Made by a program: the position numbers and the translations under genes. The notes under the pieces are model-generated. The model did not search any database and was not told the origin of the DNA. It saw only the letters and a program-made list of their open reading frames with translations. Shown in pieces: positions 10,391-64,000 of a DNA stretch of 64,000 nucleotides. Every line of letters starts with the position of its first letter. Position 1 is the stretch's first letter. Source of the stretch: a virus (taxonomy: Duplodnaviria; Caudoviricetes); the IMG/VR virus record IMGVR_UViG_3300014204_000116, positions 32,001 through 96,000 of that record; one strand, 5' to 3'.

Positions 10391-10657
10391 ATGCACTATC
10401 GAGCAATTCTAAACAAAACGCTGGAAAAGCTGAGGGCCATGGGCCACGACGCTGCATTGGTAAAGAAACTGGGCTATGCCGAGAACATGGACGAGCTGCA
10501 CAGTGTCTTGCGTGAATACGTCCTGGGCACCGACGCCAAAGTCAATGCCTTCCTAGACCAGGTGAAGGGCGAGCTTCAAGGTCAAGCATCTCAAGTAGTT
10601 GGCCGAATGCTCGATACCCCGGCGAGGAAATGCCCGAACTGTGGATACACTTTATGA
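10391..10657 (+). CDS. Hypothetical protein with a C-terminal Zn ribbon and a cargo-type motif
   Basis: GTAATTA 4 nt upstream; ASQVVGRMLD; CPNCG. Confidence 0.65.
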   Translation: MHYRAILNKTLEKLRAMGHDAALVKKLGYAENMDELHSVLREYVLGTDAKVNAFLDQVKGELQGQASQVVGRMLDTPARKCPNCGYTL

Positions 10658-10764
10658 GCAGGATTGCCAAGCAGATCGTAGGAGAAGCTGCCGAGAGAAT
10701 ACCCTACTGGGAGCGTGAAGAAAAACAGCAGCACATAGCCAACCTTAAGGGGAACCGTATTTAA
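10654..10764 (+). CDS. Small 36-aa ORF not in the supplied track (MSRIAKQIVGEAAE...)
   Basis: ATGA overlap with the upstream stop; fills the gap exactly; carries an IAKQIVGE motif. Confidence 0.5.
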   Translation: MSRIAKQIVGEAAERIPYWEREEKQQHIANLKGNRI

Positions 10765-10767
10765 TTT

Positions 10768-11094
10768 GTGGCACGCGAATCACAATTTGTAGACAGATAC
10801 CTCTCCCTGAATGGGAAGCGTGGATGGGACGACGGCCTTACGATTGGCTCATATCTCCATTCCGTTCTTGGGGGTAAGGCTAGACAATTTTCGGCCAAAT
10901 ATGCTGTTGCGCTGCAAAGGGCATGCTGGAATCGCGTCATGACAGGCAGGGCTCGAAAAGGAACGAGCAAGCTCGGGGGCACCGCTTACTATCCCACGCT
11001 CGATGTTAATGCAGTTGTAGACAGATTACTCGATATGCCGTCCAAGCCATCTGAGTCGGCCTACGACATCGATGATCCGCAACTCGGAGAATAG
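10768..11094 (+). CDS. Hypothetical protein
   Basis: GTATTTA 4 nt upstream; AVVDRLLD motif. Confidence 0.6.
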   Translation: MARESQFVDRYLSLNGKRGWDDGLTIGSYLHSVLGGKARQFSAKYAVALQRACWNRVMTGRARKGTSKLGGTAYYPTLDVNAVVDRLLDMPSKPSESAYDIDDPQLGE

Positions 11095-11102: not shown

Positions 11103-12035
11103 ATGACCAACCTTAAGAAGATATTCAAGCCTGGGACCGTCTGGACGCGGACGAATCATCGCTTTCCCTACCGGAGAGACGGGAAGATAGTGGAGCCCAC
11201 TGGGAGTCCTGTCCAGGTCAAAGTAGTGCGCCTCTACCCCGATGCGGTAGCGTTTCAGCTCGATCACGAGACTATTTCGTATCTGTCCTGGCCGCAGCCG
11301 CCGCTGGAGGTTAGAGCTTCTCCCGATAAGGTCGAGATCTCGGACAACCAGGGTATTCTCCTGACCTACGTGAAGGTGCCATCTCTTTCCGAAGTCAACA
11401 AGGTCACCCTGGCCGACTTCCTCAGCAATGGCTTTTTGCTGATGAAACTCATCCCGTTCTGGTATGCCGTCCACTGGCGCGGTGAGAGGGTCGGGGCCGT
11501 CCGTATACCGTCTTGGAGCAACCCACAGCGGGTTGTCACCTGGCTGAACATGGCGAACCAGAAGATGCCGTTCGACTTATCTGTAGGCAATTTCCACAAC
11601 TGGATGAAGAGGCTGGAAGCAGAGAAGGTCATGCCAAAGTTTCCCATCTTGCCACGCGTATTGAACAAGGTTGCGGAGTCAGTTGTAGACAGCATGCTCG
11701 AAAACGCCGTGACCAAAGCAGCTATCCGCATCAAGGACGGTCGGATATTCAGCGGCCCCATCCATTGCATGGCAGTCTCAGTGATGCAGGATCAGAAAGT
11801 GCTATCGCCAGCAGAGGAAGATCTCGAAGGTGAGCTTCGGAATCTGGGTGCAGAGTTCGGCTGGCTGGACGAAGAAGGCCAGTTCCTTACCCGCCGCCAG
11901 GCTTACAAGCTCGCGGTCGCCTCCGGCCAGATAGCCGACACATACGGGCCTGATGGGGCTCTGACCCATGACATGCTCGACGATACGTCGATTGCCATCG
12001 ACGTAGAAGATAACGCTGAGGGCGTTAGTCCTTAA
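11103..12035 (+). CDS. Multi-domain hypothetical protein
   Basis: 310 aa; internal VAESVVDSMLE linker; C-terminal G(W)LDEEGQFLTRRQA phage domain. Confidence 0.7.
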   Translation: MTNLKKIFKPGTVWTRTNHRFPYRRDGKIVEPTGSPVQVKVVRLYPDAVAFQLDHETISYLSWPQPPLEVRASPDKVEISDNQGILLTYVKVPSLSEVNKVTLADFLSNGFLLMKLIPFWYAVHWRGERVGAVRIPSWSNPQRVVTWLNMANQKMPFDLSVGNFHNWMKRLEAEKVMPKFPILPRVLNKVAESVVDSMLENAVTKAAIRIKDGRIFSGPIHCMAVSVMQDQKVLSPAEEDLEGELRNLGAEFGWLDEEGQFLTRRQAYKLAVASGQIADTYGPDGALTHDMLDDTSIAIDVEDNAEGVSP

Positions 12036-12099: not shown

Positions 12100-12606
12100 A
12101 TGCTGGATAAAGTCTCTCGGCAAATGCTACGACATGTCTGCTACTGCCATCCCAGGGGAAACCCAAAAGATCCTTACCGCCATTTTGACATCAGCGAAGG
12201 CCACATGGTTCGGGGATCATTGTTCATCTGCAACGGGTGCGACCGTAGAAAGCGGTGGAAGTCTGCGGATCTTAGCGCGATTTGTAAGCATAACTCAGTC
12301 GAAAAGATAATCCATCGACTTTTGTTCGCGCACAAATGCCGGTTCATTCCCGGCTATTGCTTAGGAAATTTCAAGTTCGACTACGCAATACCACACCTTC
12401 GTGTTTTGGTGGAGATTGATGGAAAAACTTATCACAAGGAAGAAAAGCCTACAGAAGACGGCCTGCCTAAACCTTTAGTGCCGGGCACCAAAGCTTGGGT
12501 CGTCCACGAGCACGGCTGGAAATTAGTGCGGGTGCAGAATGGCCCACGGTTGAGAGAGCGGTTTATTGCAGAAGTGCTAAAAGCGTGCCAGGTAGTTAAG
12601 GCATGA
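12100..12606 (+). CDS. DUF559/Vsr-like PD-(D/E)xK endonuclease with an N-terminal Cys motif
   Basis: FKFDYAI..LRVLVEIDGKTYH...HGWKLVRV; start could be 12058. Confidence 0.75.
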   Translation: MLDKVSRQMLRHVCYCHPRGNPKDPYRHFDISEGHMVRGSLFICNGCDRRKRWKSADLSAICKHNSVEKIIHRLLFAHKCRFIPGYCLGNFKFDYAIPHLRVLVEIDGKTYHKEEKPTEDGLPKPLVPGTKAWVVHEHGWKLVRVQNGPRLRERFIAEVLKACQVVKA

Positions 12607-13430
12607 ACAATCCCGCGATTGCAGAGTGCGCTGTAGACATTATGCTAGATGCTTTTCCTGCCCAGCAGGAAGGTGTCGAGTCTTCATCTGCTGTTCCTAC
12701 GCCGCCCGCAGAGGGTGGGGTATCCTTTACGACGAGTGACATGCGCGATCTTTTCTACAGTTCGCACACTTACGGGCCAATCTTACTCCTGGTTAGTGAA
12801 GCGGACAAGTGGGAAGGCAGCACCCTGGATGGGCATGTCACGAGAATTAGCCATCAGTATTTGCACGAGAATACCATCATATTCCAATGGAGTGATTACA
12901 ACTACACCAGGGAATGGACTGATAAAGGTACCGGCGAAAGGATACCAGAAAAAGCTGCCTTGGCTATTGACGAGCTAATCGACAAAGTTGAGAAGCTAAT
13001 GACTCGGCATGTTCGAACAATTAGCAAGCACATCTACAGGGATTTGGAAAAAGAATACAATTATCTGAATAGCGAGGAAAGCGTTGCTGAGATTATCCGT
13101 GCAAATATTTACAAGTTCGACGAGGATGGCGAGTATGATGACAGCGAGGAAGGCGTGGAGTATGATGATCTGAGTGACAGGGCCAAAGAAAAAGCCCGAG
13201 AGTGGTACACATCAAACGGTATAGACTATGATTGGTGGGAGGACGTATGTGACACCTGGAAGAGTCGGCTAAATGAAATGGGATTTGGGAGTGGCCCAGA
13301 GTACGTCAATATAGGATTTTCTGGATTTTCCAGCCAAGGTGACGGAGCGTCGTTCACTTGCAAGTCTTTCGATATTCGGGCGTACGCTCGCTACCTGGTG
13401 TCTGGAAAAGCAAAGGATCTTGGCTTATGA
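12603..13430 (+). CDS. Mobile-element acidic protein of the GF(W/S)SQGDGA family, apparently circularly permuted
   Basis: Motifs LSDRAKEKAREWY, GFSSQGDGASF and IYRDLEKEYNYLNSEE..IRANIYKF; GTAGTTA upstream. Confidence 0.6.
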   Translation: MNNPAIAECAVDIMLDAFPAQQEGVESSSAVPTPPAEGGVSFTTSDMRDLFYSSHTYGPILLLVSEADKWEGSTLDGHVTRISHQYLHENTIIFQWSDYNYTREWTDKGTGERIPEKAALAIDELIDKVEKLMTRHVRTISKHIYRDLEKEYNYLNSEESVAEIIRANIYKFDEDGEYDDSEEGVEYDDLSDRAKEKAREWYTSNGIDYDWWEDVCDTWKSRLNEMGFGSGPEYVNIGFSGFSSQGDGASFTCKSFDIRAYARYLVSGKAKDLGL

Positions 13431-13717
13431 CTACTCTTGCCGAAAAGATCATTGGTGAGCCCAATAAACAACGGTTTGTCTCGCTATTCATGCACATGAA
13501 CTCGGAGGATCGGAAGCTCATCCACCACTGGAGTATCGATCACGATGATTCAGTTTCGAAAGTTTGCTTCTACATGACTCTGATTGGCCAGGGATTTATC
13601 GAGTTCATCTCGGATTACACCGATAGGCATAACGGGGATTTCAGGATGTACCCCTATGGGGCGTGGATTTGCGTGGAGCTAATGATACCTGATAGTAGCC
13701 CAGATAAGCTGCCCTGA
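13427..13717 (+). CDS. Hypothetical protein
   Basis: ATGA overlap; N-terminus MTTLAEKIIGE. Confidence 0.6.
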   Translation: MTTLAEKIIGEPNKQRFVSLFMHMNSEDRKLIHHWSIDHDDSVSKVCFYMTLIGQGFIEFISDYTDRHNGDFRMYPYGAWICVELMIPDSSPDKLP

Positions 13718-13763: not shown

Positions 13764-14225
13764 ATGGCTGTTGTTCTTACAACCGAGCAACTTGATTTTC
13801 TGGCAAAGACCGCCTCTTGGAAGTTCGATGTGGACTTCAAGGATCTGCGGGACAGCGTTACGTACACAGGCGACGGAGTAGATGACCTGGACATGCTCAT
13901 TAACAGGCTGACAGGCCCACTGTACATGCAGCCCAAGATCCTGTGCGATGTGGGCAAGCTGTTTAGTAGCTGGATAATCGTGACTGTAGATGATATTTAC
14001 GCGCTGAGAGGGCGCTACATAGAAATTCACGGTACAGCTAGCAAACCACCCGAGTATTACGATCAGCGCGCGGGCTCGACGATTGAAGTGACGGGCACCA
14101 CCTACGAGGCTGGGAACGTAGCGGGGCCAAACCCAGAGGGCAACTACGGCGACTTTACAGACTATGGAGATGGTCGGGGCCGGACTCATCCGTCTACAAC
14201 TCCTGACCAGGTGGTGGGGCTATGA
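13764..14225 (+). CDS. Hypothetical protein
   Basis: 153 aa; GTAGTTA at 13752-13758. Confidence 0.65.
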   Translation: MAVVLTTEQLDFLAKTASWKFDVDFKDLRDSVTYTGDGVDDLDMLINRLTGPLYMQPKILCDVGKLFSSWIIVTVDDIYALRGRYIEIHGTASKPPEYYDQRAGSTIEVTGTTYEAGNVAGPNPEGNYGDFTDYGDGRGRTHPSTTPDQVVGL

Positions 14226-15997
14226 GAACGGTTCACGAAGTTATAGCAGCTATGCCCGATGATTTTGGCATTGAACCTCGCGAAATAGTAAGAGCAGCAC
14301 TATTTCAAACGCGCGAAAAATTACTCGATGACTTCGGCCTGAAGAAGGATGACAAGGAAAACTACATAATACCGGATACTGGGTGGACAGAGCATTACTA
14401 CAATCTCTACGACCGGGCCAACTACCTGGCTTTCATTAAGCACTTTAAGCCGTGGGTAAAATCCAGCCCGCATGGAACTGAAGAAGGAGCGGTTATCCTG
14501 CATAGGTCGCTATTTTTCATGCCGACGTCCAAGATAAAAGAGCTTTTGGATGCCATCACGGATATTAAGGACAATTATCCAGTTCTTGATGAGGAGATCC
14601 TAAGTGATTTGGAAGTGGAATTGTCGGAGGAAGCCTGGGGGAGCACATATCGAAAAGAGTTCAAGAAACTGGTAAAAGATGCCGTCTCTCCCTTCTTTGA
14701 GGATATTACCCCCGAAGAAGGCGCATCACCCTGGGAGATGGTTGAAGATCTTTTGGACGGTGATGAAGGCGATGGTATACTCGATGATTTTTTTAGGTAT
14801 TATCAAGAGCACTCAAATGGCGATGACTGGGAGTTCGAAGATAGTGGTGGCGTAAGACTTCGATTGAAAAAGGTGGAGCAGGATATTTACAATAGTGATT
14901 TAGGTGTGAAATGGGCACGCGAGCTGAAAAACAAGCTATGGCCGGAAGACCCGAGGCAGCTAAAGTTTAAATTTGCCGAGTGCATTGTCGGGCATTTACT
15001 GGCGGGCTGCGTCACTCTGATAGAGTCGTCTGGAGCTGCCCGTATAATGGCCGCGCAACTCATGGAGGACAGCGGCCCCCATGAGTATTCGTGCGTAATG
15101 ATAGATCTTCCACCGGATATGTCGGCTAAAATCATTGCGTGGGGTCGGCAGCAGATTCCTAATGAGCAGCTTTTTGTAGACAAAGATGGTGGTAGCGGTC
15201 GGGAGGAAGAGATTCATGTAACCGTGAAATACGGACTTCACGACGCGATGCCGAATGAGGCGCTCAAGAAAATTTTCGGTAGCACTGCGCCATTTGAAAT
15301 AGAACTTGCCCCGATCAGCTTGTTTAGGAACGAGGGTCATGACGTCGTAAAAATGGAAGTTAGTAGTCCACAGCTTCGGGAGCTAAACCGGGTGATAACG
15401 GCATCGTGCGATTGCACGGATTCCTACCCGGAGTATAAGCCACATGTCACTCTGGCTTATGTCCGCCCCGGCACCTGTGACCGGTTGGAGGGAACATCCC
15501 CGTTTGATAACCCGATTAAAATGGGCGCGACCACTCTCAGGAAGGAAGGCCATTTTACGGCTAACCAGGTTGTCTTTTCGTCCAGAACTGGCATAAAGAA
15601 GAGCTATAGCTTAGGCCCGGAAGAGCCGGAGAAGGAACAAGTAGAAGAAGATGACAGCGCAGGCGAATCAACGCCCGGAATAGATCCGGCTGAGATTGCG
15701 CGTCCTTTTATCAGGGGTAAGGAAGTGTCATTGAAGAACCTTCGATTAGCGGCTAGCCGTGAACTCATAAGGTCGATCCATGTCAACAGAAGGGGCGTGG
15801 GTAGCTATCCTGAAGGAAGACTGACTTTCTTTTTTATGCGCGGTGCAAATAGATACGTTGATTTTTGTTCCCTAGGGGTGCTGGCTCAAGCACTTCGGGA
15901 ATGGCGAAACCTTAAGGGTGTCCCACTCTTCGTCGATAATGCGACAGCCGGTGTGGTTTCCTACCAGAATCCAGTTCTAGCGGCTTTGGCTCGCTGA
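14222..15997 (+). CDS. Multi-domain protein with a central 2H phosphoesterase (Acb1/LigT-like) domain
   Basis: Two HxT motifs, IHVTVKYG and YKPHVTLAY, flanked by acidic linkers and unrelated domains. Confidence 0.8.
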   Translation: MRTVHEVIAAMPDDFGIEPREIVRAALFQTREKLLDDFGLKKDDKENYIIPDTGWTEHYYNLYDRANYLAFIKHFKPWVKSSPHGTEEGAVILHRSLFFMPTSKIKELLDAITDIKDNYPVLDEEILSDLEVELSEEAWGSTYRKEFKKLVKDAVSPFFEDITPEEGASPWEMVEDLLDGDEGDGILDDFFRYYQEHSNGDDWEFEDSGGVRLRLKKVEQDIYNSDLGVKWARELKNKLWPEDPRQLKFKFAECIVGHLLAGCVTLIESSGAARIMAAQLMEDSGPHEYSCVMIDLPPDMSAKIIAWGRQQIPNEQLFVDKDGGSGREEEIHVTVKYGLHDAMPNEALKKIFGSTAPFEIELAPISLFRNEGHDVVKMEVSSPQLRELNRVITASCDCTDSYPEYKPHVTLAYVRPGTCDRLEGTSPFDNPIKMGATTLRKEGHFTANQVVFSSRTGIKKSYSLGPEEPEKEQVEEDDSAGESTPGIDPAEIARPFIRGKEVSLKNLRLAASRELIRSIHVNRRGVGSYPEGRLTFFFMRGANRYVDFCSLGVLAQALREWRNLKGVPLFVDNATAGVVSYQNPVLAALAR

Positions 15998-32683: not shown

Positions 32684-32751
32684 ATGGTTTAAATACGATG
32701 GGAGCTGGATTAATCTGGGGTTTCATGCGCGGAGGCGCGGGTAGTTAGTAC

Positions 32752-33096
32752 GTGATCGCGCGATACGTTGTTGAAGTTCTGCTTGAAGAACAGCCCAATT
32801 TTAAACGGGCTGATCAGGTGTTTAACGGCGAAATACCGTTTGGGTTCATAGGGGTTGTAGACAATGGCCATGTCCGAGCATCTGTGGGTGGGCTTGAATA
32901 CGTGGATCACTCTGAGCTGGGGTATACGCAGGAGACGGGCCGATGGCGCTTCGCGACCAATAGGCGTATCCCGGTTGTACTCTGGACAACTCCACCGACG
33001 ATGGCGCAGATATTCGAGGTCGAGGAGTGGCTAAAGAAGAAGGGCTACGAGGTAGCCAGTCATACACAAGATTTCAACAAATGGCGCGGCTTTTGA
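32752..33096 (+). CDS. Hypothetical protein with an N-terminal cargo-type motif
   Basis: GTAGTTA 4 nt upstream; MIARYVVEVLLEE. Confidence 0.7.
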   Translation: MIARYVVEVLLEEQPNFKRADQVFNGEIPFGFIGVVDNGHVRASVGGLEYVDHSELGYTQETGRWRFATNRRIPVVLWTTPPTMAQIFEVEEWLKKKGYEVASHTQDFNKWRGF

Positions 33097-46851: not shown

Positions 46852-46865
46852 TCGAATATGGCCGG

Positions 46866-49215: not shown

Positions 49216-49228
49216 ATGAGTACAGCGA

Positions 49229-49816: not shown

Positions 49817-49823
49817 ATATATC

Positions 49824-49852
49824 TTGAAATGGAGGCAAGAATTGTCTATCCT
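49824..49852 (+). promoter_or_regulatory. Sigma70-like promoter
   Basis: TTGAAA-N17-TATCCT. Confidence 0.5.
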
Positions 49853-49869
49853 GCATACGAACCGATAAT

Positions 49870-54684: not shown

Positions 54685-57600
54685 ATGAAGTGTCGGATCA
54701 AAGACTGCCACGGTTACGTGGCTCCCCACGCAACTGAGGAGTCGCGCGTACACGATCTTTGCCCGGCTCATTCCGAGGGCCTTTTAATGACGGCGGAGGA
54801 AGTTGTAGACGAAGCTTTAGACCCTGCCGAGTTCGTTAAATCCTTCACAGCAGCCAAGTACAGGGATCAGATCAGGCGTTGGGACAAAGCTTCCACCGTG
54901 GGGGAGGTCATCGAGATATTGCAACATCTCCGCGCGCCAAAACGAACTTATGCAGAAATCAGCATAGCCCTTGCCGAAAAAGTTCTTCCGGTGTTCGAAA
55001 AGGAATTTCCCAAAGATCTTCGCCCCCGGCAGGCAGTAGAGGCTACCAAAGCCTGTCTTAAGGACCAGACGCCAGCAGTTGTTCAAGCGGCGGTTAATGC
55101 CGCTAATGGTGCTAACGATGCTTCTATCGCTTCCACTATGCACGCTGCTGCTTCCAACGCTGCTTCGGCTGCTTCCAACGCTGCTTGGACTGGTGCTGAC
55201 GGTGCTGACGGTGCTGGCGTTGGTGGAGCTATGTGGGCTGCCGTTGATACTGCCAACACTGCTGCTTATGCTATTAACGCGGGCCTTACCAAGCAGCATG
55301 CGTTGAACATCATCCAGGAAATTGGTGAGAAATACTTTTCGTTTTTGGCCCAATGGGTCAGGAATCCCAAGGCTGAAAAGGTAGCGGAAGCCGACGAAAC
55401 TTTAGATCCTGCCAAATTCGTTAAGTCTTACACCACGACTAAATATAAAAATGAGATTGAGCGCTGGAACAAAGTTTCCACCACAGGGGATGCCCTCGCA
55501 ATACTGCAATTTCTCCGCGCTCCGAAGGTAGCTTACACAGAAATTAGCATAACACTAGCGGAAGAAGTTCTTCCGAAGTTCGAAAAGAAGTATCCTAAAG
55601 ATCTCCGCCCTCGGAAAGCTATAGAGGCTGCCAAAGCTTGGACTAAGAGTCAAACGTCAGCAAATGTTCAAGCGGCTACTTTTGCTGCCGATGCTGCTTA
55701 CAACGCTTCCGTCGCTACCTTCGCCAATGCTGCAATGGCCGCTTCTAATGCAGCATTGGCTGCTTCCAATGCTGCTGCTCAGGCTGGCGCTGATACTACT
55801 GAACGGGCTGCTATCAATGCTGCCAATGCCGCTTATAACGCTATTAGTGCAGGTCTTACCAAGCAGCACGCGTTGGGTGTCATTAAGGGAATTGGTGAGA
55901 AATACTTTTCGTTTTTGATTCGAGGCTGGGGTAAGCACACGTCTGAAAAGGTGGCGGAAGCCGACGAAACTTTAGATCCTGCTGAGTTTGTTCAGTCCTT
56001 TACTGTGGCCAAATACAAGGATGAGATTGAGCGTTGGACCAAATCTCCTACTGTGGGGACTCTTATCGGCGTCCTTAAAGCCATCAAAACCTCCAAGGCA
56101 GTCTTTGTCGAGATCGGGATAGCTATTGCCGAAGAGGCTCTCTCGGTGTTCGAAAATAAGCACCCCGGAGATCTCCAAGATCTTCGCCCTCGGAAAGCTT
56201 TGGAAATAGCTAAAGCCTGGCTTAAGGATCAAACGGAAGCTAATGCTCAGGCTGCTCAGCATGTAGCTTATGAGATTTACGACGCTTATGTTGATTATGG
56301 CACTAACGCTGTTGCTTATGCCGCCCAAGCTGCTGCTTATCCTAAAGCTGCGGGCAGCTATGTCACTTATGCTGCTAGTTCCGCTATTAAGGCAGGCATT
56401 CCTTCTCAGCGATTAGTGGATATTATTCGAGAAATAGGGCATAAGCATTTTGGATTCCTACCCCAAGGATCGGGTGAAACAGCAGCAGAGCCAGTTGTAG
56501 ACGAAGCTCTCGATCCTTCCGAGTTTGTTCAGTCCTATACCACAGACAAGTATAAGAAGGAGATCAAGACTTGGAATAAAAATAGTACTCCAGGGAGCCT
56601 CATTGACGTCCTCAAAGCTCTCAAAGCCCCCAAGACAGCCTACGTAGAAATAGGGGTAATTCTTGCAGAAGAAGTTCTTCCGGTGTTCGAAAAGGAGTTC
56701 CCTAAAGATCTCCGCCCTCGGAAAGCTATAGAGGCCACAAGAGCCTGGCTTAAAGACAGTTCATTAGTTGCTGGCGATGTTGCCGCTGGAGCTATTAAGG
56801 CTGCCGATGAAATTGAAGCTTTTAATAAGGGCGACAGTAACTTTAAGGTCTGGAATACTCACGCCAAGGCCACTCATGCTGCTAAAGTGGCTGCCTTTGC
56901 TGCTTGGTCCGCCTTTGCCTCTTCTAACGTAGGCTTGGCAATTTCTAGCGCGCATTACGCCACTATTGATGCCATAGGCGCGGGCCTCACCAGCCAGCAC
57001 GCGATGGATGTCGTTAGGGAAGTTGGCGGGAGATACTTTTCGTTCTTAACTCAAGGATCGAGTAAAAAGGTAACAAAGGCAGTTGTAGACGAAGCTCTAG
57101 ATCCTGCTGAGTTCGTTCAGTCTTATAATCTGGCCAGGCACAGGAAAGAGATCGAGACCTGGGGAAAAGTTTACAGTCCGATGGCTCTTATTAACGTACT
57201 GCACACTCTCAAAGCTCCCCAGGCAGCCTTTGTACAAATTAGTATAGCCCTGGCCGAAGAAGCTCTTCCGAAATTTGAAAAGAAATATCCTAAAGATCTA
57301 CGACCTCGGAAAGCCATAGAAGCGGCTAAAGCCTGGCTTAAGGACGGAACAACGGCCAATGCTGACGCTGCTGAAGCCGCTGGTAAAGAAGCCATGGCGG
57401 CTGTTGCTATGACTAATCGTAGTAGTAGTCCTTACATGGCTTCTCGGGCCGCTGCTCGGGCCGCTGCTCAAGCCGCTTACATCACTTGCGTTTCTCCCAC
57501 TAGCGACCATGTTTACGCTTACGCGGATGCCACTGCCCTACACTCGGGTAAAGCGGGTGTACCCAAGCAACGTGCGATGGATATCATCCGGGAAGTGGGG

Positions 57601-60600
57601 CACGCATATTTTGGGTTCTTAGCCCAGGGATCAAGTAAAAAGGTAGCGGAAGCCGATGAGACTTTGGACTCTGCCGAGTTCGTTAAGTCCTACACTACGA
57701 CTAAGTATCAAAAGGAGATCGAAGCCTGGAATAAGGCTACTACTCCTGATGCTCTTACCAGCGTCCTTAAGTCTCTTAAAGCTCCGAAGGCAGCCCGTGT
57801 AGAAATCAGTGCAGCTCTCGCGGGAGAAGTTCTTTCGGTGTTCGAAAATACATACCCAGGAGATCTCCGCCCTCGGAAAGCAATAAAAGCTGCCAAAGCC
57901 TGGCTCCAGGATAAGACAACAGCCAATGCCCTGCTGGCTGACGCTGCCGCTGACGCTGCCGATGAAGCTGCCTGGACTGCTTACTATGCTGCTTGCGCTG
58001 CCCAAGCTGATGTCGATGATGGCAGGCCTTCTTGTGCCGCTCATGCCGCTTGGGCTGCCTGGAGTGCCGCTCAGACGGCTACATACAACGTTGTTAACGA
58101 TGCCCACGATGCAGCTAATTATGCCTTAAAGGCGGGTCTTTCTAACCAGCGCATAATGGACATCGTCAAGGATATAGGTGAAGGATACTTTTCGTTCTTA
58201 ATCCCAGGCCAGCCCGGTAAAGTAGTCGAAGCTGGTGAAGCTTTAGATCCGTCCGAGTTCGTTAAGTCTTACCATACGAGCAAGTACAAAAATGAGATAA
58301 AGGCCTGGGGCACCGCCACCGCTCCAAACACTCTGATCGACATTCTCGAACGTCTCAAAGCTTCCAAGAATGCCTACACGGCGGTAAGCGCAGCACTCGC
58401 CGAAGAAGTTCTTCCTGCATTCGAGAAGAGATATCCTGCCGATCCTCGGCCTCGACAGGCAGTAGAAGCTGCCAAAGATTGGCTTGAAGGCAAGATAGTA
58501 AATAACGCTAATGCTGCCGCTCGTGCTGCCAGTGCTGCCTCCGATGCTCGGGCCACCGCCTATGATCGTCTCCCTGGCGTCGATAGAGATGCCGATGCCG
58601 CTGCTTACGCTGCTGCTTACGCCGCTGGTTCTACCACTGGTTCTGCCTACGGTGCTTACAACGCTGTTTATTACGCTGTTATGGCAGGCCTCCCCCAGTC
58701 GCGTGCCGTGGTTATTATCAAGGAAGTGGGCGAGAAATACTTTTCGTTCTTAGGTAGGGGTCCAAGTGAAGGCGTGGCTGAAGTGATTGTGACAAATTTG
58801 CTGGATGAAGTCTTAGATCCAGCCGAATTTGTCCGGTCCTATACCACGGCCAAATATCAGAAGGAGATCGCGGAATGGAACAAATCTACCACTCCAGAGG
58901 CTCTTCTCTACGCCCTTAAATCTCTCAAAGCTCCGAGAGAAATTTTTGTAGAAATTTGTCTGGCATTTGCAGAAGAAGCTCTTCCGATATTCGAAAGTAA
59001 GTTCCCTGAGGATCTCCGCCCACGTAAGGCTATAAAAGCCACCAAGGCTTGGCTTAGGAATAGGACAGTGGAAAATGCTCGTAAGGCTGACCGGGCTGCT
59101 TATGCCTCCGACGAGGCTGCCTCGGCTGCTATTAAGGCCTCGGCCTACGCTGCTGTTGCTTCTGCTGCTGCTCATGCTGCTTCTCGCGCGGCTTGGAGTG
59201 TTAATTCTGCACACGATGTTTTTATTGGCTTTGTCGGGAATACTACTTCGGCTGCCACCTGTGCTACTGAAGCAGGCATCTCTAACCAGCGCGCCATGGA
59301 CATCGTTAGGGAAGTAGGCCACAGATACTTTTCGTTTTTAGACCAGGGCTCCACAGAGGGCGTGGCTGAGGCAATCGTAACAAATTTGCTGGATGAGACT
59401 TTAGACCCTGCCGAGTTCGTTAAGTCTTACACCACGACCAAATATCAGGACGAGATCGAGGACTGGAATAGGGCTATTACTCCGAAGGGTCTTATTGACA
59501 CCCTTACAACTATCAGAGTTCCAGGGGCAGTTTTCGTAGAGATTAGCATAGCTCTCGCAGAAAAGACTCTTCCGGCATTCGAAAGGACGCACCCAAAAGA
59601 GCTTAAGCCACGGAAAACTTTGGAAGCAGCTAAAGCTTGGCTTAAAAACAGGACAAGTGCCAATGCCCGTGTTGCTCGTGCTGCTGCTGATGAAGTCGCC
59701 ATTGGCATATCCGCTGCTAACGGTGCTCGGGCTGCCGCGTGGGCGGCTTACGGCGCTGCTTTTCCTGAGTCTGCCTCTCTTTTTACTGCATATGCCGTTG
59801 GTGACGCCGTTCACGGGGGCCTTACCAACGGTCAGGTGATGGACATCGTCAGGGAAATCGGCCATAGATACTTTTCGTTCTTAGCTCGGGGCTCGGGTGA
59901 AACTAATGAAGCCCTGGACCCCTCCGAGTTTGTCCGGTCCTACAACGCGACCAAATACCGCGAAGAAATAATAGACTGGACTAGTACTTCTACCCCAAAG
60001 GGTCTCATCTTTATTCTCAAGACTCTCAATGCTCCCAAAGCAGCCTTTGTCGAGATTGGCATAGCCCTTGCAGAGGAAGCTCTTCCGATATTTGAAAAGG
60101 AGTTCCCCGAGGATCTTCGCCCTCGGAAAGCTTTGGAAATAGCTAAAGCCTGGCTTAAGGATCAAACGGAAGCTAATGCTCAGGCTGCTGCTGATGCGGC
60201 GGCTGCCGCCTCTACGACCTGGTGGTCTTCCGATGCTACTGCCTATGCCCGTAATAATGCTGCTAGTGCTGTCTACGAGGTTCTTTGGATAGTTGGGACT
60301 GATACCACGAGCAGAGTTGTGGCCACTGCTAATGTGGCTTATTATGCCACTAAAGCAGGCCTTCTCCCTCAGCGCGTGTTTGACGTCGTTAGAAAAATCG
60401 GTGAGAAATACTTCTCGTTCTTAGGCCCGGACACGGATGTAAATGTAGTGGAAGCCAGCGAAGCTTTAGATCCTGCTGAGTTTGTCCAGTCCTATACCCT
60501 GGACAAATATAGGGATAAGATTGAAATTTGGAACAAGTCTACTAACGAAAAGGATCTCCTCTATGTCCTTAGGGATATTGGGGCTCCCAAGACAGCCTAC

Positions 60601-63600
60601 GTAGAAATTGGCCTAGCTTGCGCAGAAGGAGTTCTTCCGGCATTCGAAAAGAAATACCCCGGAGAACTTCGTCCCCGACAAGCGCTAGAAGCTTTAAGAA
60701 CTTGGCTTAAAGACCCATCGCCAGCTAATGCCCACGCTGTTAAGGCTGCTGCTCAGGCCGCTGACGCTGCTGCTCAATTGGCTGCTGTTGACGCTGCTAA
60801 AGCTGAGGACGCCGCTGAAGCTGCTGAAGCTGCGGGTGGTTACTACACCACAGATCACGATATTGACAGAGCTTCTTGGGCTGCCAATGCAGCAGCCAAT
60901 GCTGCCTGGATTATCGGTGTTGTTTATACAGCGCTTGATGCCATTGGCACTGTCTATTACGCCACTAAAGCAGGCCTTCCCCTCCAGCGTGCATTGGATA
61001 TTGTCAGAGGAGTGGGTGCGAAATACTTCTCGTTCTTAGGCCAGGGGCCGAGTGAAAAGGTGGCGGAAGCCCACGAAATGTTAGATCCTTCTGAGTTTGT
61101 TAAGTATTACCACCGGGGCAAATACAGGGAAGAGATTGGGGCTTGGAACGAAACTGACAATCCAGAGATTCTTGTTGCTGTTCTCCGGGCTCTCAATGTT
61201 CCGAAAGTGGCTTATGCAGAGATCAGCGTAGCACTCGCTGAAAAAGTTCTTCCTGTATTCGAGAAGAGGTATCCTAATGATCCTCGGCCTCGACAGGCGG
61301 TAGAAGCTGCCAAAACTTGGCTTGGAGCTAGAACAGTGGCCAATGCCGAGGCTGCGGAAAAAGCTATTGTCGCTGTCTATGCAATTGCTCACATAACCAG
61401 TGCTTCTGCTTCTGTTATTTTTTACGCTGCCCGAGTCGTTCGTAATGCCAAAACTGATCTGGGTGTTGGTAGCACTTCTGCTTATGTTGCCGCCTCTGAA
61501 GCTGCTGGCTACGCCGCTCACTATGCCGTTAAAGCAGGCATTTTCACACAGGAGGTCATAGGCATAATTAAGGAAGTGGGGCACAAGTATTTTTCATTTT
61601 TAGGCCAGGGAACAACCGAGGGCATGTCCGAAGCGATTGTAACAGGTTTGCTAGGTGAAACTTTAGATCCTTCTGAGTTTGTTAAGTCTTACACCCTGAG
61701 CAAATACCAGGTAGAGATTGAAGTTTGGAACAAAGCGTCTATTCCAAAAGATCTTACCGGCGTATTGCAACGTCTTAAAGCTCCCAAAGCTGCCTACGTA
61801 GAGTTTGGCATAGCCGTTGCCGAAGAAGTTCTATCGGTATTCGAGAAGAGGTATCCTAATGATCCTCGGCCTCGTCAGGCAATAGAGGCTGCCAAAACTT
61901 GGCTTAACGACCAAACGGAGGCTAATGCTCTTGCGGCTCGTGCTATTGCTCTTGCCGCTTCTGACGAAGATGTTTCTGATCGGCCTGCCTGCTCTGCTCA
62001 TGCTGCCGCTAATGTCGCTTGGTCTGCTGCCTCTTATTCTGCTTACATTATCTATTCCCTGTATGCTATGGCTGATGCAGCCAGGGTAGGCCTTCCCAGG
62101 CAGCGCATAATGGACATTGGCAGGGAAATAGGCCATAAATACTTTTCATTCTTAGGCCAGGGCACGGATGCAAATGTAACGGAAGCCCTCGATGCTTTAG
62201 ATCCTTCTGCATTCTTTCAATCCTACACGCTGGCCAAATACAAGAAGGACATTAAAGATTGGGGTAAAGCTACGACTTCAGAGGATTTTATCCGTGTCCT
62301 CCATAATATCAATGCTCCCAAGGCAGCTTTTGTAGAGATAGGAATAGCGTGCTCAGAAGAATTACTTCCGATGTTTGAGAAGAACCACCCAGGAAAGGAT
62401 CAACCTCGGAACGCGGTAGAAGCGGCCAAAGCTTGGCTCAAGAACCAGACAACAGCTAATGCCAAAGCTGCCCGTTTTGCAGCAGTTGAGGCTCGGGAAT
62501 TTGCTTCCGATAGCTGGGCGACTGATGCTATGGCTGCTTGTGTCGCTTCGGCTGCTTCTGAAGCCGCTGCTGCCGCTGCTCATGCTCCTACTCCTTCTGC
62601 TTCTGGCCCTAGCTACTCTGCTGTTGCTGCCGGGGGTTCTATCTACTATGCCATGAGGGTCGGTCTTTCTTCCCAGAGCGCAGCCAATATCGTTAAGGAA
62701 GTGGGAAAGAGATATATCTGGTTCTTGAACCAAGATGGGATAAGCAGCGTGGCTGAAACAGCCGTGGCCAACTTGCTGGACGAAGCCTTAGATCCTGCCG
62801 AGTTTGTTAAGTCCTACACCCTTGACAAATACAGCGATGAGATTGAAACGTGGAACAAAGCTACCACTACAACGGCTCTTATCAACGTATTGAAATCTCT
62901 TAAATCTCCTGGTGCAGCCTTCGTAGAGATTAGTGCAGCTCTCGCAGAAGAAGTCCTCCCGGTATTTGAAAAAGCGGCACCTAATGATCTCCGGCCTCGG
63001 AAAGCTGTAGAGGTCGCAAAAGACTGGCTTAAGGGCAGGGCAACAGGTGATGCCGATGCTCTCAGTGGCGCTGCTCTGGCCGCTTACGAGGTTCTTACCA
63101 GAGCTGCGACTGCGGCTTTTGATATTGAGTCTACCTGGGCCGCTGTTCAAGCCGCCGATCAGGCCGCTGCCGCTGCTCGGGCTGCTGCTTGGACCGCTAA
63201 CGTTGTAAGCAACAACAACATTAATGCCGATGCCAGGGACGTGGCTAACGTGGTTTTTTATTCTGTCAGGGCAGGCCTCCATAACCGGCACGTGATGAGC
63301 ATCGTCAAGAAGGTGGGCGAGAAATACTTTTCGTTCTTAAGCCGGGGCTCGAAAAAAAGGCAGCCAAAAGCCACTCCAGGCAAGTTGCCCGAAGATAACG
63401 CCGATCAGTCCATACTCTATCATTTGGCAGACGTGGCTAAGTATTCTGACAGGTGGCATGCTTACGTATTAAATTCTGCCGGGGAAAAGATCTATTTGAC
63501 GCCAGACAGCACGCTTACTAAAGATCCAATCCTGTGGACGACGCAACAGCGCGCGCGGGTGATAGGTAGCCATTACTGGCAAAGTGTACAGTGGGAGCGC

Positions 63601-63648
63601 GTTCCCTATGATATCGCAAAGTCCAGCGAAGAAAGTGGTGGGGTGTAA
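54685..63648 (+). CDS. Polyprotein of 15 tandem Imm5-like domains plus a unique C-terminal domain
   Basis: 15 units of the form E(A/T)LDP(A/S)EFV.S...DLRPR.A.EAAKAWL...GxKYFSFL, joined by acidic linkers. Confidence 0.9.
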   Translation: MKCRIKDCHGYVAPHATEESRVHDLCPAHSEGLLMTAEEVVDEALDPAEFVKSFTAAKYRDQIRRWDKASTVGEVIEILQHLRAPKRTYAEISIALAEKVLPVFEKEFPKDLRPRQAVEATKACLKDQTPAVVQAAVNAANGANDASIASTMHAAASNAASAASNAAWTGADGADGAGVGGAMWAAVDTANTAAYAINAGLTKQHALNIIQEIGEKYFSFLAQWVRNPKAEKVAEADETLDPAKFVKSYTTTKYKNEIERWNKVSTTGDALAILQFLRAPKVAYTEISITLAEEVLPKFEKKYPKDLRPRKAIEAAKAWTKSQTSANVQAATFAADAAYNASVATFANAAMAASNAALAASNAAAQAGADTTERAAINAANAAYNAISAGLTKQHALGVIKGIGEKYFSFLIRGWGKHTSEKVAEADETLDPAEFVQSFTVAKYKDEIERWTKSPTVGTLIGVLKAIKTSKAVFVEIGIAIAEEALSVFENKHPGDLQDLRPRKALEIAKAWLKDQTEANAQAAQHVAYEIYDAYVDYGTNAVAYAAQAAAYPKAAGSYVTYAASSAIKAGIPSQRLVDIIREIGHKHFGFLPQGSGETAAEPVVDEALDPSEFVQSYTTDKYKKEIKTWNKNSTPGSLIDVLKALKAPKTAYVEIGVILAEEVLPVFEKEFPKDLRPRKAIEATRAWLKDSSLVAGDVAAGAIKAADEIEAFNKGDSNFKVWNTHAKATHAAKVAAFAAWSAFASSNVGLAISSAHYATIDAIGAGLTSQHAMDVVREVGGRYFSFLTQGSSKKVTKAVVDEALDPAEFVQSYNLARHRKEIETWGKVYSPMALINVLHTLKAPQAAFVQISIALAEEALPKFEKKYPKDLRPRKAIEAAKAWLKDGTTANADAAEAAGKEAMAAVAMTNRSSSPYMASRAAARAAAQAAYITCVSPTSDHVYAYADATALHSGKAGVPKQRAMDIIREVGHAYFGFLAQGSSKKVAEADETLDSAEFVKSYTTTKYQKEIEAWNKATTPDALTSVLKSLKAPKAARVEISAALAGEVLSVFENTYPGDLRPRKAIKAAKAWLQDKTTANALLADAAADAADEAAWTAYYAACAAQADVDDGRPSCAAHAAWAAWSAAQTATYNVVNDAHDAANYALKAGLSNQRIMDIVKDIGEGYFSFLIPGQPGKVVEAGEALDPSEFVKSYHTSKYKNEIKAWGTATAPNTLIDILERLKASKNAYTAVSAALAEEVLPAFEKRYPADPRPRQAVEAAKDWLEGKIVNNANAAARAASAASDARATAYDRLPGVDRDADAAAYAAAYAAGSTTGSAYGAYNAVYYAVMAGLPQSRAVVIIKEVGEKYFSFLGRGPSEGVAEVIVTNLLDEVLDPAEFVRSYTTAKYQKEIAEWNKSTTPEALLYALKSLKAPREIFVEICLAFAEEALPIFESKFPEDLRPRKAIKATKAWLRNRTVENARKADRAAYASDEAASAAIKASAYAAVASAAAHAASRAAWSVNSAHDVFIGFVGNTTSAATCATEAGISNQRAMDIVREVGHRYFSFLDQGSTEGVAEAIVTNLLDETLDPAEFVKSYTTTKYQDEIEDWNRAITPKGLIDTLTTIRVPGAVFVEISIALAEKTLPAFERTHPKELKPRKTLEAAKAWLKNRTSANARVARAAADEVAIGISAANGARAAAWAAYGAAFPESASLFTAYAVGDAVHGGLTNGQVMDIVREIGHRYFSFLARGSGETNEALDPSEFVRSYNATKYREEIIDWTSTSTPKGLIFILKTLNAPKAAFVEIGIALAEEALPIFEKEFPEDLRPRKALEIAKAWLKDQTEANAQAAADAAAAASTTWWSSDATAYARNNAASAVYEVLWIVGTDTTSRVVATANVAYYATKAGLLPQRVFDVVRKIGEKYFSFLGPDTDVNVVEASEALDPAEFVQSYTLDKYRDKIEIWNKSTNEKDLLYVLRDIGAPKTAYVEIGLACAEGVLPAFEKKYPGELRPRQALEALRTWLKDPSPANAHAVKAAAQAADAAAQLAAVDAAKAEDAAEAAEAAGGYYTTDHDIDRASWAANAAANAAWIIGVVYTALDAIGTVYYATKAGLPLQRALDIVRGVGAKYFSFLGQGPSEKVAEAHEMLDPSEFVKYYHRGKYREEIGAWNETDNPEILVAVLRALNVPKVAYAEISVALAEKVLPVFEKRYPNDPRPRQAVEAAKTWLGARTVANAEAAEKAIVAVYAIAHITSASASVIFYAARVVRNAKTDLGVGSTSAYVAASEAAGYAAHYAVKAGIFTQEVIGIIKEVGHKYFSFLGQGTTEGMSEAIVTGLLGETLDPSEFVKSYTLSKYQVEIEVWNKASIPKDLTGVLQRLKAPKAAYVEFGIAVAEEVLSVFEKRYPNDPRPRQAIEAAKTWLNDQTEANALAARAIALAASDEDVSDRPACSAHAAANVAWSAASYSAYIIYSLYAMADAARVGLPRQRIMDIGREIGHKYFSFLGQGTDANVTEALDALDPSAFFQSYTLAKYKKDIKDWGKATTSEDFIRVLHNINAPKAAFVEIGIACSEELLPMFEKNHPGKDQPRNAVEAAKAWLKNQTTANAKAARFAAVEAREFASDSWATDAMAACVASAASEAAAAAAHAPTPSASGPSYSAVAAGGSIYYAMRVGLSSQSAANIVKEVGKRYIWFLNQDGISSVAETAVANLLDEALDPAEFVKSYTLDKYSDEIETWNKATTTTALINVLKSLKSPGAAFVEISAALAEEVLPVFEKAAPNDLRPRKAVEVAKDWLKGRATGDADALSGAALAAYEVLTRAATAAFDIESTWAAVQAADQAAAAARAAAWTANVVSNNNINADARDVANVVFYSVRAGLHNRHVMSIVKKVGEKYFSFLSRGSKKRQPKATPGKLPEDNADQSILYHLADVAKYSDRWHAYVLNSAGEKIYLTPDSTLTKDPILWTTQQRARVIGSHYWQSVQWERVPYDIAKSSEESGGV

Positions 63649-63653
63649 TTAGT

Positions 63654-64000
63654 ATGCAGATGAACGCGGAGCACATAGTAGGCACTTTGATCGGTGAAGG
63701 CGAGAGCGATGATTCCCGTCTTCTGCGCGATATTGCCAAGGTGGGGATGGATACACCCTGGCTGGCCGCGAGGAGAGCCTGGGATAATGCCGATCCACCG
63801 GATAAGGCCTGGACTGCCGTGTTTAACGCCATTGGATTTATCGGTGGCCGTGCTGATTACATGGCCGTCATGTTGAATCGCCTTGAGCGCGAGGCTCGCA
63901 CACGGGGTATAGATTTTGGGGAAATGTGGCCACAGGTTGATCTACACCTATCGGCTGCCTCTATTCCAACGGACATTCGAGACATAGTACATCGTATCTG
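63654..64000 (+). CDS. Hypothetical protein with an N-terminal cargo-type motif (3' end truncated)
   Basis: GTAATTA at 63645-63651; MQMNAEHIVGTLIGEGE; frame open to the window end. Confidence 0.65.
   Translation, partial: MQMNAEHIVGTLIGEGESDDSRLLRDIAKVGMDTPWLAARRAWDNADPPDKAWTAVFNAIGFIGGRADYMAVMLNRLEREARTRGIDFGEMWPQVDLHLSAASIPTDIRDIVHRI

What the first reader, a model, noticed from the sequence alone, without database searches (positions are those of the whole stretch)
10391..64000. Shared amphipathic tag A-E-x-h-V-x-x-L-L-[DEG]-(E) in unrelated proteins: a putative capsid-targeting sequence
Seen in non-homologous ORFs: ASQVVGRMLD (10391), IAKQIVGE (10654), AVVDRLLD (10768), VAESVVDSMLE (11103), IAECAVDIMLD (12603), LAEKIIGE (13427), FAECIVGHLL and ARIMAAQLMED (14222), IARYVVEVLLEE (32752) and NAEHIVGTLIGE (63654). 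It also occurs in four polyprotein linkers: VAEVIVTNLLDE, VAEAIVTNLLDE, MSEAIVTGLLGE and VAETAVANLLDE. I did not see it in the small sigma70-driven ORFs. Established: T4 internal proteins carry a short N-terminal capsid-targeting sequence that is removed after Glu. Inference: a portable packaging tag, usable internally, that defines a set of injected cargo proteins.
Basis: partly seen in the sequence, partly recalled or inferred. Interest (0 to 1): 0.82.

Follow-up and report, generated by a model that had tools for sequence, protein, structure and literature searches.

The report
Capsid-address-like tag on phage proteins
An uncultured giant relative of phage T4 attaches the same 11-residue acidic helix (A-E-x-I-V-x-x-L-L-x-E) to about 16 unrelated late proteins. 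It most likely works like T4's peptide that loads proteins into the capsid and is then cut off, but neither packaging nor cutting has been shown.

Summary
All 14 peptides are in the sequence. A scoring matrix trained on the window's 11 full instances finds 9 more in the rest of the 160-kb contig, against 0.1 in shuffled proteins. The carriers share no detectable similarity by BLAST, apart from two Imm5-like polyproteins and one paralogue pair.

The tag sits at N-termini (7 of 13 non-linker hits), near C-termini (4) or at domain junctions. Its codons vary, so selection acts on the peptide. AlphaFold models it as a low-confidence helix outside well-folded domains.

Tagged genes are enriched behind the GTAGTTA element that precedes structural genes (p = 5e-4). 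Orthologues in two distant relatives keep the tag. Those relatives encode a gp21-type head protease, and next to it a small protein starting ...ILGE|AE. The invariant positions (V-6, L-3, L-2, E0) have the spacing of the four residues mapped as functional in T4's capsid-targeting sequence.

Best reading (about 0.55): an expanded T4-style capsid-address and Glu-cleavage tag, carried by cargo that includes an Acb1-like enzyme and the Imm5-like arrays. Packaging, cutting and injection are all inferred, and this contig lacks the protease and capsid genes.

This scan reached the same reading earlier on another window of this genome, and noted similar tags in other genomes. Novelty: new variant of a known kind.

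The parts
10586..10618 (+). Tag ASQVVGRMLDT, 12 residues before the C-terminus of ORF 10391-10657 (88 aa)
   Evidence: 25.0 bits
10654..10686 (+). N-terminal half-tag MSRIAKQIVGE of a 36-aa ORF that ends at an in-frame TAA (10762-10764)
11005..11037 (+). Tag VNAVVDRLLDM, 18 residues before the C-terminus of ORF 10768-11094
   Evidence: 24.0 bits
11673..11705 (+). Internal tag AESVVDSMLEN at residue 191 of ORF 11103-12035 (310 aa)
   Evidence: 25.4 bits
12592..12598 (+). GTAGTTA late-gene element, 4 nt before the ATG of tagged gene 12603-13430
12621..12653 (+). N-terminal tag AECAVDIMLDA (residues 7-17) of ORF 12603-13430 (275 aa). The body (residues 46-264) is homologous to an internal module of a 1190-aa tagged protein in relative G1
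13427..13459 (+). N-terminal half-tag MTTLAEKIIGE of ORF 13427-13717
14975..15070 (+). Two tags (AECIVGHLLAG, then ARIMAAQLMED) at the junction just before the Acb1-like 2H phosphoesterase domain of ORF 14222-15997. In relative G2 the orthologous domain is a stand-alone protein that starts with the equivalent tag
32741..32747 (+). GTAGTTA element, 4 nt before the GTG start of tagged gene 32752-33096
32758..32790 (+). N-terminal tag ARYVVEVLLEE (residues 3-13) of ORF 32752-33096 (114 aa)
   Evidence: 23.0 bits
54670..54676 (+). GTAGTTA element, 8 nt before the ATG of the 2987-aa Imm5-like polyprotein
54685..63648 (+). 2987-aa chain of Imm5-like units. Every unit junction found ends in Glu before x-L-D-P/S. 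Four junctions carry the full tag; the others carry a short form such as V-A-E-A-D-E, which reads as the tag without its I-V-x-x-L-L core
58777..58809 (+). Linker tag AEVIVTNLLDE, preceded by GTG (Val)
59365..59397 (+). Linker tag AEAIVTNLLDE, preceded by GTG (Val)
61627..61659 (+). Linker tag SEAIVTGLLGE, preceded by ATG (Met)
62752..62784 (+). Linker tag AETAVANLLDE, preceded by GTG (Val)
63666..63698 (+). N-terminal tag AEHIVGTLIGE (residues 5-15) of a 521-aa orphan protein that starts at 63654 and runs off the window

Best explanation
The motif is a portable, acidic, amphipathic helix of about 11 residues. The consensus is A-E-x-[IV]-V-x-x-[LM]-[LI]-x-E. It is appended to the N-terminus of otherwise unrelated late proteins, less often near the C-terminus or at a domain junction.

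The likely mechanism is inferred by analogy with phage T4. The hydrophobic face (positions -7/-6 and -3/-2 from the final Glu) docks the protein onto the scaffolding core while the prohead assembles. A gp21-type, Glu-specific prohead protease then cuts after L-x-E. This frees the mature protein inside the capsid, and it enters the host with the DNA.

Tags ending in Asp, Gly or another residue would still address the protein but would not be cut at that spot. In the Imm5-like polyproteins the same element, and a shortened A-x-E form of it, would mark the places where the chain is cut into units.

Shown: the tag is real, portable, kept at the protein level, placed at termini or junctions, associated with late genes, and retained in orthologues. 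Inferred: docking, cleavage, packaging and injection.
For: - **Enrichment and train/test validation**.
- **Terminal placement:** 11 of 13 non-linker hits are at termini.
- **Carriers unrelated** by BLAST.
- **Codons:** all four Ala codons and six Leu codons are used at conserved positions, so the repeat is in the peptide and not the DNA.
- **Structure:** AlphaFold models give tag helices at pLDDT 50-60 flanking domains above 90.
- **Late-gene link:** 7 of 16 tagged genes directly follow GTAGTTA, which also precedes the portal gene (for its identity), a baseplate hub-like gene (named from its N-terminal sequence only), a tail-fibre gene and the gene next to the sheath gene. Only 15 of 182 untagged genes follow it (Fisher p = 5e-4).
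- **T4-type portal** (PF07230, E = 9e-18) on the same contig.
- **Relatives G1, G2 and G3** carry adjacent gp21-type protease and gp23-type capsid genes (phrog_207 in G1 and G2).
- **Head-module neighbour:** in G1 and G2 a conserved small protein just upstream of the protease starts MDSTIKRILGE|AE and MNKSAIVAKLLGE|AE.
- **Four orthologue pairs keep the tag** although it is N-terminal in one phage and internal in the other.
- **T4 mapping:** CTS targeting depends on IPIII residues 4 and 7, and processing on residues 8 and 10. Asp at 10 blocks cutting but not targeting (PMC9026906). These are positions -6, -3, -2 and 0. In this tag they are V (22/22), L/M (22/22), L/I/M (22/22) and E (12/22).
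- **T4 sequences read from the record:** MKTYQEFIAE, MAKINELLRE, MELITELFDE.
- **Best T4 match:** the top hit of the window-trained matrix in 100 kb of T4 is prohead core protein gp68 (14.8 bits; the next is 8.1).
- **Plausible cargo:** an Acb1-like 2H enzyme and Imm5-like units.
Against: - No protease, scaffold or major capsid gene is on this contig. CheckV rates it 72% complete, so the enzyme is inferred from relatives whose helicase is only about 42% identical.
- The T4 tags themselves score poorly with this matrix, so there is no sequence-level membership.
- Ten of 22 tags lack the terminal Glu.
- Four tags lie near C-termini, one at the very end.
- Only 4 of the 13 unit junctions found in the large polyprotein carry the full tag.
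- Stand-alone Imm5-like genes also have Glu before x-L-D-P. That Glu may therefore belong to the domain rather than to a cleavage site.
- Several tagged genes lie in a baseplate/tail-fibre neighbourhood.
- The relatives G1 and G2 show no enrichment of the strict motif.
- There are no proteomic data of any kind.
Confidence: 0.55

Rival explanations
1. The helix is a docking peptide for some other shared hub, not the capsid core. Candidates are a baseplate or tail assembly platform, a chaperone, or an ejection or membrane complex. On this reading the tagged proteins are not capsid cargo.
For: Three tagged genes (genome 142024, 143316, 145429) follow a weak gp53-like baseplate gene and precede tail-fibre genes. 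C-terminal and uncleavable (D/G-ending) tags fit a pure binding role. No head protease is seen on the contig.
Against: In relatives the tag heads a conserved small protein encoded beside the head protease. Its spacing equals that of the mapped T4 CTS residues. The best T4 match is a prohead core protein. In T4 the internal-protein genes are also scattered among unrelated genes.
Confidence: 0.2
2. The element is only a linker or processing mark, or a relic of former N-termini left by gene fusion. It has no addressing function.
For: All six full-tag linkers are preceded by an ATG or GTG codon. Orthologues switch between stand-alone and fused forms exactly at tags. A shortened A-x-E form is present at the other junctions.
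Against: A relic would not keep V/L/L invariant in 22 copies across about 16 unrelated families with diverse codons. It would also not sit at the true N-termini of single-domain proteins right behind their start signals.
Confidence: 0.12
3. The helix is an integral structural element of the individual domains that happens to look alike, such as the N-terminal helix of the 2H family or a generic amphipathic helix. The resemblance would come from convergence or composition.
For: 60% of 143 representatives of the 2H family carry phi-phi-(x)-E in the 10 residues before the domain, whether that is N-terminal or internal. That could be a family feature.
Against: The motif is 20- to 90-fold enriched over shuffles. 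T4 Acb1 and solved Acb1 structures start at the first strand without such a helix. The helix is modelled with low confidence next to high-confidence domains. The same 11-mer occurs on about 16 unrelated families.
Confidence: 0.05

Closest known systems
Phage T4 capsid-targeting sequence (CTS) of internal proteins IPI-III, and the gp21-removed propeptides of Alt, gp24, gp22, gp67 and gp68
   Same: Both are short peptides of 10-19 residues placed at the N-terminus of otherwise unrelated, fast-evolving proteins. Hydrophobic residues sit at -6 and -3, an aliphatic residue at -2, and Glu at the cut position. C-terminal propeptides also occur in T4 Alt (PMC5694885). T-even internal proteins are diverse defence-countering proteins that share only the CTS (PMC3012670).
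   Different: The consensus differs and is one helical turn longer (A-E-x-I-V-x-x-L-L-x-E against M-K-T-Y-Q-E-F-I-A-E). T4 tags are not detected by this matrix. About 16 families carry the tag here, against a handful in T4. The tag is also used at internal junctions of very long polyproteins and near C-termini. Many copies lack the Glu. Nothing has been shown experimentally.
Propeptide processing in giant phages phiKZ, 201phi2-1 and SPN3US (S/A/G-x-E motif; protease gp175/gp245)
   Same: Cleavage follows Glu after a three-residue motif, on many head and ejection proteins. The short polyprotein linkers here read A/V/T-x-E (PMC5694885).
   Different: Those phages have no conserved helical address peptide. 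Their protease family (S80) is only distantly related to gp21, whereas relatives of this phage match the gp21 family itself.
Polyvalent proteins of phages and conjugative elements (Iyer et al. 2017, PMC5512222)
   Same: These are long multi-domain conflict proteins encoded among late genes and predicted to be packaged and injected. The 2H phosphoesterase is one of their listed domains. Homologues of the window's 2H domain occur inside proteins of 1000-2400 aa.
   Different: Polyvalent proteins mix different domains and often carry their own peptidase domain. Here one chain repeats a single Imm5-like domain at least 13 times, Pfam reported no peptidase domain, and the junctions carry an address-like helix.
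Encapsulin cargo-loading peptides
   Same: Both are short portable peptides that direct unrelated cargo into an HK97-fold shell (from general knowledge).
   Different: Encapsulin peptides are usually C-terminal, have a different consensus and are not removed. This is a functional analogy only and was not tested.

Membership tests
T4-type capsid-targeting sequence / gp21-removed propeptide | Short (10-19 aa) N-terminal peptide shared by otherwise unrelated proteins | tested here: met
   Seven proteins with at least 14 bits have the tag's final residue at residue 13-26, and there are two half-tags. The carriers are unrelated. However, 4 copies are near C-termini and 8 are internal.
T4-type capsid-targeting sequence / gp21-removed propeptide | Targeting determinants: hydrophobic residues at IPIII positions 4 and 7 (that is, -6 and -3 from the cut) | tested here: met
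   V at -6 in 22/22 copies and L/M at -3 in 22/22. The T4 mapping is from PMC9026906.
T4-type capsid-targeting sequence / gp21-removed propeptide | Processing determinants: aliphatic residue at -2 and Glu at 0 (L/I-x-E) | tested here: inconclusive
   L/I/M at -2 in 22/22 copies, but Glu at 0 in only 12/22, with 2 more having Glu at -1. In T4, Asp at this position blocks cutting but not targeting.
T4-type capsid-targeting sequence / gp21-removed propeptide | Sequence similarity to the T4 CTS itself | tested here: not met
   The N-termini of T4 IPII/III, Alt and gp24 are not among the top hits of the matrix. The top hit is an internal segment of gp68.
T4-type capsid-targeting sequence / gp21-removed propeptide | The phage encodes a gp21-family prohead protease with a scaffold core and T4-type head genes | tested here: inconclusive
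   The own contig has no PF03420 or PF07068 hit, but it does have a T4-type portal. By synteny the head module falls in the missing part. Relatives G1, G2 and G3 have the protease and capsid genes.
T4-type capsid-targeting sequence / gp21-removed propeptide | The protein is found in the capsid with the tag removed, and the tag suffices to package a foreign protein | not testable with these tools
   The phage is uncultured and there are no proteomic data.
Polyvalent proteins (Iyer et al. 2017) | Two to 15 different conflict-related domains in one polypeptide, often with a peptidase domain | tested here: not met
   The 2987-aa protein repeats one Imm5-like domain and Pfam reported no peptidase family for it. 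The 591-aa protein has a single recognised 2H domain.
phiKZ/SPN3US-type processing (S/A/G-x-E) | Small residue at P3 and Glu at P1 | tested here: inconclusive
   Short linkers read A/V/T-x-E, while full tags read L/I-x-E. The protease of relatives matches the gp21 family. The S80 family was not tested.

The most novel reading that the evidence does not exclude
The tag is a general address code of a large, uncultured clade of T4-like giant phages. It would let any protein be loaded into the capsid as a stand-alone gene or as a module of a cleavable polyprotein. This phage would use it to inject a ready-made arsenal: an Acb1-like nuclease for cyclic-nucleotide signals, more than 15 Imm5-like toxin inhibitors, and a dozen orphan proteins.

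The finding that 60% of 143 representatives of a 4719-member 2H family carry the same ...L-L-E element right before the domain would then mean that pre-packaged counter-defence enzymes are common in nature.
Probability: 0.35. Interest if true: 0.8.

Novelty: new variant of a known kind. Interest (0 to 1): 0.6.

Why it matters
If the tag does address proteins to the capsid, it gives a sequence-only way to list the injected protein arsenal of uncultured giant phages. Here that arsenal would hold about 16 families, most of them orphans. It also flags those orphans as candidate counter-defence factors.

It would show that T4's handful of internal proteins is the small end of a much larger system that includes cleavable polyproteins. 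It would also offer a second, different address peptide for loading foreign proteins into phage heads.

Tried and rejected
**Searches for close relatives that found nothing**
- A search of the phage collection with 6 kb of DNA found no match.
- Single-protein searches of the viral contigs with two tagged proteins and with the helicase found no relatives.
- A degenerate DNA pattern for A-E-x-I-V-x-x-L-L-D-E gave 19 single hits in viral contigs. None is related, and about that many were expected by chance by my own rough estimate.
- The genome collection held no relative, and the metagenome collection gave only short contigs.
- The 521-aa tagged protein has no homologue other than itself among 5.8 billion proteins.
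- A search with one tagged Imm5 unit returned only distant Imm5-like proteins that do not cover the tag.

**Annotation attempts that gave nothing**
- Pfam and PHROGs give nothing for most tagged proteins.
- ESM Atlas gives nothing usable for two of them.

**Ideas tested and dropped**
- The looser pattern phi-phi-x-E at N-termini is only weakly enriched (16 against 8.7 expected) and not at all in G2, so I dropped it as a criterion.
- Long 2H-containing proteins from other phages do not show periodic tags. The polyprotein-with-tags layout is therefore not general for that family.
- The idea that a relic Shine-Dalgarno sequence precedes the linker tags was rejected. The GAGG lies only 2 nt from the ATG/GTG.
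- A DNA-level repeat was rejected on codon diversity.
Full report
**What the window is.** The window is bases 32001-96000 of a single 159,890-bp IMG/VR virus contig that CheckV rates 72% complete. The contig encodes a contractile-tail phage distantly related to T4-like phages.
- The sheath protein gives only 24-29% identity to cultured myoviruses.
- There is a gp6-like baseplate wedge and a UvsW-like helicase.
- Just upstream of the window there is a T4-type portal protein (PF07230, E = 9e-18).
- No gp21-type protease or gp23-type capsid gene is on the contig.
- Synteny with two relatives places that head module in the part the contig lacks.

**The observation.** All 14 quoted peptides are present. 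The finding's coordinates are mostly gene starts rather than motif positions. Two items are half-tags and one (ARIMAAQLMED) is a weak variant.

The motif is far from chance.
- A regex derived from the list gives 15 hits in 198 ORFs, against 0.6 in shuffled proteins.
- To avoid circularity I trained a position matrix on the window's 11 full instances only. The rest of the genome then gives 9 hits of at least 14 bits, against 0.1 expected.
- In a six-frame scan only two hits of at least 14 bits lie outside credible coding frames: one in a frame with no start codon, and one in an ORF antisense to the Imm5 array. The called ORFs hold 20 such hits, counting that antisense one.
- A hundred kilobases of T4 give one hit at that level.
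- Two related giant phages give none.

**Anatomy of the tag.** Across 22 copies, position 5 is always Val, position 8 is Leu or Met, and position 9 is Leu, Ile or Met. Position 1 is mostly Ala and position 2 mostly Glu. Position 11 is Glu in 12 copies, and Asp, Gly or another residue in the rest.
- Conserved positions use all four Ala codons and six Leu codons. Unrelated copies share 51% of their bases on average, so the repeat is kept at the peptide level, not as DNA.
- Of 13 non-linker hits, 7 start within the first 16 residues (p = 6e-6), 4 end within 20 residues of the C-terminus, and 2 lie at internal positions, one just upstream of the 2H domain.
- After the tag there is usually a Gly/Pro/Ser/acidic stretch.
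- Two AlphaFold models with useful alignments agree. One covers the Acb1-like domain with its upstream tags, the other an Imm5-like unit with a tag on each side. In both, the tags are helices with pLDDT of only 50-60, next to domains above 90.

**Who carries it.** By all-against-all BLAST the carriers are unrelated, except the two Imm5-like polyproteins and one paralogue pair. That makes about 16 families, most with no Pfam, PHROG or Atlas match.

Two cargo types are recognisable.
- One is a 2H phosphoesterase related to anti-CBASS Acb1, with both H-x-T motifs.
- The other is the Imm5-like unit. Its model weakly resembles chain B of 7jtu, an entry titled as a type VI secretion deaminase toxin (probability 0.91, TM 0.44-0.48). 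From memory, not checked here, that chain is the immunity protein of the complex.

**Link to late genes.** GTAGTTA lies 3-10 nt before the start codons of about 20 genes. These include the portal gene, a gene whose product looks like a baseplate hub (judged from its N-terminal sequence only), a tail-fibre gene, the gene next to the sheath gene and a 1414-aa LamG-like protein. Seven of 16 tagged genes follow this element directly, against 15 of 182 untagged genes (odds ratio 8.7, p = 5e-4). Other tagged genes lie downstream of such genes on the same strand and may be co-transcribed. The element also confirms the start codons that put the tags at the N-terminus.

**Relatives.** Helicase homologues at 50-60% identity exist on contigs of 200-250 kb, but their DNA could not be reached. 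Two more distant relatives were read whole: G1 (238 kb) and G2 (203 kb), with helicase about 42% identical. They share 47-54 proteins with this phage in the same order. Both encode adjacent genes for a gp21-type protease, fused to a coiled-coil scaffold-like part, and a gp23-type capsid protein.

The strict motif is not enriched in G1 or G2, so the expansion is specific to this lineage. The tag itself is older than that.
- Four orthologue pairs keep it at the homologous place.
- It can be N-terminal in one phage and internal in the other. The stand-alone Acb1-like protein of G2 begins with the element that is internal in the window's 591-aa protein.
- The body of the window's 275-aa tagged protein is an internal module of a 1190-aa G1 protein. 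That G1 protein itself begins MKTADTILRLLLE.
- In both relatives, a conserved small charged protein encoded just upstream of the protease gene starts MDSTIKRILGE|AE (G1) or MNKSAIVAKLLGE|AE (G2). In T4 that position is held by the prohead core genes 67 and 68.

**Comparison with T4.** The T4 record gives these N-terminal peptides:

| T4 protein | N-terminal peptide |
|---|---|
| IPII, IPIII | MKTYQEFIAE |
| gp24 | MAKINELLRE |
| Alt | MELITELFDE |
| gp22 | MLKEQLIAE |

According to a review of the T4 work, targeting depends mainly on IPIII residues 4 and 7, and processing on residues 8 and 10. Asp at position 10 blocks cutting but not targeting (PMC9026906). Counted from the cut, these are positions -6, -3, -2 and 0. 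Those are exactly the invariant Val, Leu, Leu and the frequent Glu of this tag.

The T4 tags themselves are not picked up by the matrix. Its best T4 hit, by a wide margin, is an internal segment of prohead core protein gp68 (INTIVENMLDD). The resemblance is therefore in grammar and function, not in sequence. T-even internal proteins are described as diverse counter-defence proteins that share only the targeting sequence (PMC3012670). T4 Alt also loses a C-terminal piece (PMC5694885).

**A wider pattern.** An exhaustive search with the tag-plus-2H segment found 4719 homologues. Among 143 cluster representatives with enough upstream sequence:
- 60% have phi-phi-(x)-E in the ten residues before the domain, against 7.7% of control windows.
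- 30% have the full phi-phi-x-x-phi-phi-(x)-E, against 1.3% of control windows.
- The rates are the same whether the domain is N-terminal (38/60) or internal (48/83).

T4 Acb1 and solved Acb1 structures have no such helix. This fits a widely used tag, but a family-specific helix is not excluded. Long proteins holding this domain do not show tags at their other junctions.

**The polyprotein.** All 13 unit junctions found in the 2987-aa chain end in Glu before x-L-D-P/S.
- Four junctions carry the full tag.
- The others carry forms such as K-V-A-E-A-D-E. These read as the tag without its I-V-x-x-L-L core and fit the A-x-E rule of giant-phage proteases.
- All six full-tag linkers in the two polyproteins are preceded by an ATG or GTG codon. 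That suggests they derive from N-terminally tagged stand-alone genes.
- Stand-alone array genes also have Glu at this place (MSATAE|TLDP). The Glu alone is therefore not independent evidence for cutting.

**Reading.** The best-supported mechanism is a T4-style address-and-cut tag, expanded to about 16 families and used inside polyproteins (confidence about 0.55). The main rival is a docking helix for another hub, favoured by the baseplate neighbourhood of some tagged genes and by C-terminal or uncleavable copies (0.2). A mere linker or fusion relic (0.12) and an integral structural helix (0.05) fit the data poorly.

**Novelty.** The principle is known from T4, and related ideas exist for polyvalent proteins (PMC5512222). 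Three things are new here: the consensus, the scale, and the internal use in chains of Imm5-like units.

This scan reached the same reading before on another window of this genome (e1-5754791) and noted comparable tags in other uncultured phages. Those are unchecked notes, not independent evidence.

- the train/test statistics;
- the retention of the tag in orthologues;
- the tagged small protein encoded beside the protease gene in relatives;
- the portal on the own contig;
- the residue-by-residue match with the mapped T4 determinants;
- the survey of the 2H family.

Noticed in passing
window 676, 12592, 13752, 16000, 32741, 54670 (and about 15 more in the genome): GTAGTTA lies 3-10 nt before the start codons of late and structural genes: 25 copies on the + strand against about 10 expected. 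At genome 134462 it forms the palindrome GTAGTTAACTAC between two divergent genes. It is too close to the ATG for an ordinary -10 element with a leader, so it may mark leaderless late mRNAs or be a translation signal.
   Followed up: partly
window 10654-11094: An in-frame TAA (10762-10764) separates a 36-aa ORF that begins with a half-tag from ORF 10768-11094, which ends with a C-terminal tag. If read through, the two would form one protein of 146 residues (147 codons including the read-through stop) tagged at both ends.
   Followed up: no
window 14945-14975, and homologues P0140, P0147, P0179, P0188, P0204 and others: Where the 2H domain is internal, a second conserved motif [ED]-D-P-x-Q-[LM]-x-[LF]-x-[LF] often sits shortly before the tag. 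In the window it reads EDPRQLKFKF-AECIVGHLL. Its meaning is unknown.
   Followed up: partly
L083:14235-15851 (G1) and L084:17334-18998 (G2): In the relatives the gp21-type protease domain is fused to a coiled-coil, scaffold-like C-terminal part of about 350 aa, giving one protease-scaffold protein.
   Followed up: partly
genome 137325-141665 (L005:12325-16665): A 1446-aa protein carries two intein-like insertions (Hint plus LAGLIDADG, and an Intein_splicing domain) in a host protein that is 64% identical to its G1 counterpart over 501 aligned residues. Several helicase relatives also carry inteins.
   Followed up: no
genome 29624-31595 (L002:14601-16595), just upstream of the window: A T4-type portal protein (PF07230, E = 9e-18) is preceded by GTAGTTA. 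In this clade it lies far from the protease and capsid genes, unlike the 20-67-68-21-22-23 block of T4.
   Followed up: partly
window 63654 onward (genome 95654-97219): The 521-aa tagged orphan protein is recorded on a second contig of 225,968 bp, probably a fuller copy of this genome. The tool needed to read it was closed.
   Followed up: no
window 44910-46878 and 49169-50111, minus strand: Long minus-strand ORFs overlap the Imm5-like gene array in antisense. One even scores 14.6 bits with the tag matrix. They look like artefacts of the Ala-rich repeats rather than genes.
   Followed up: no
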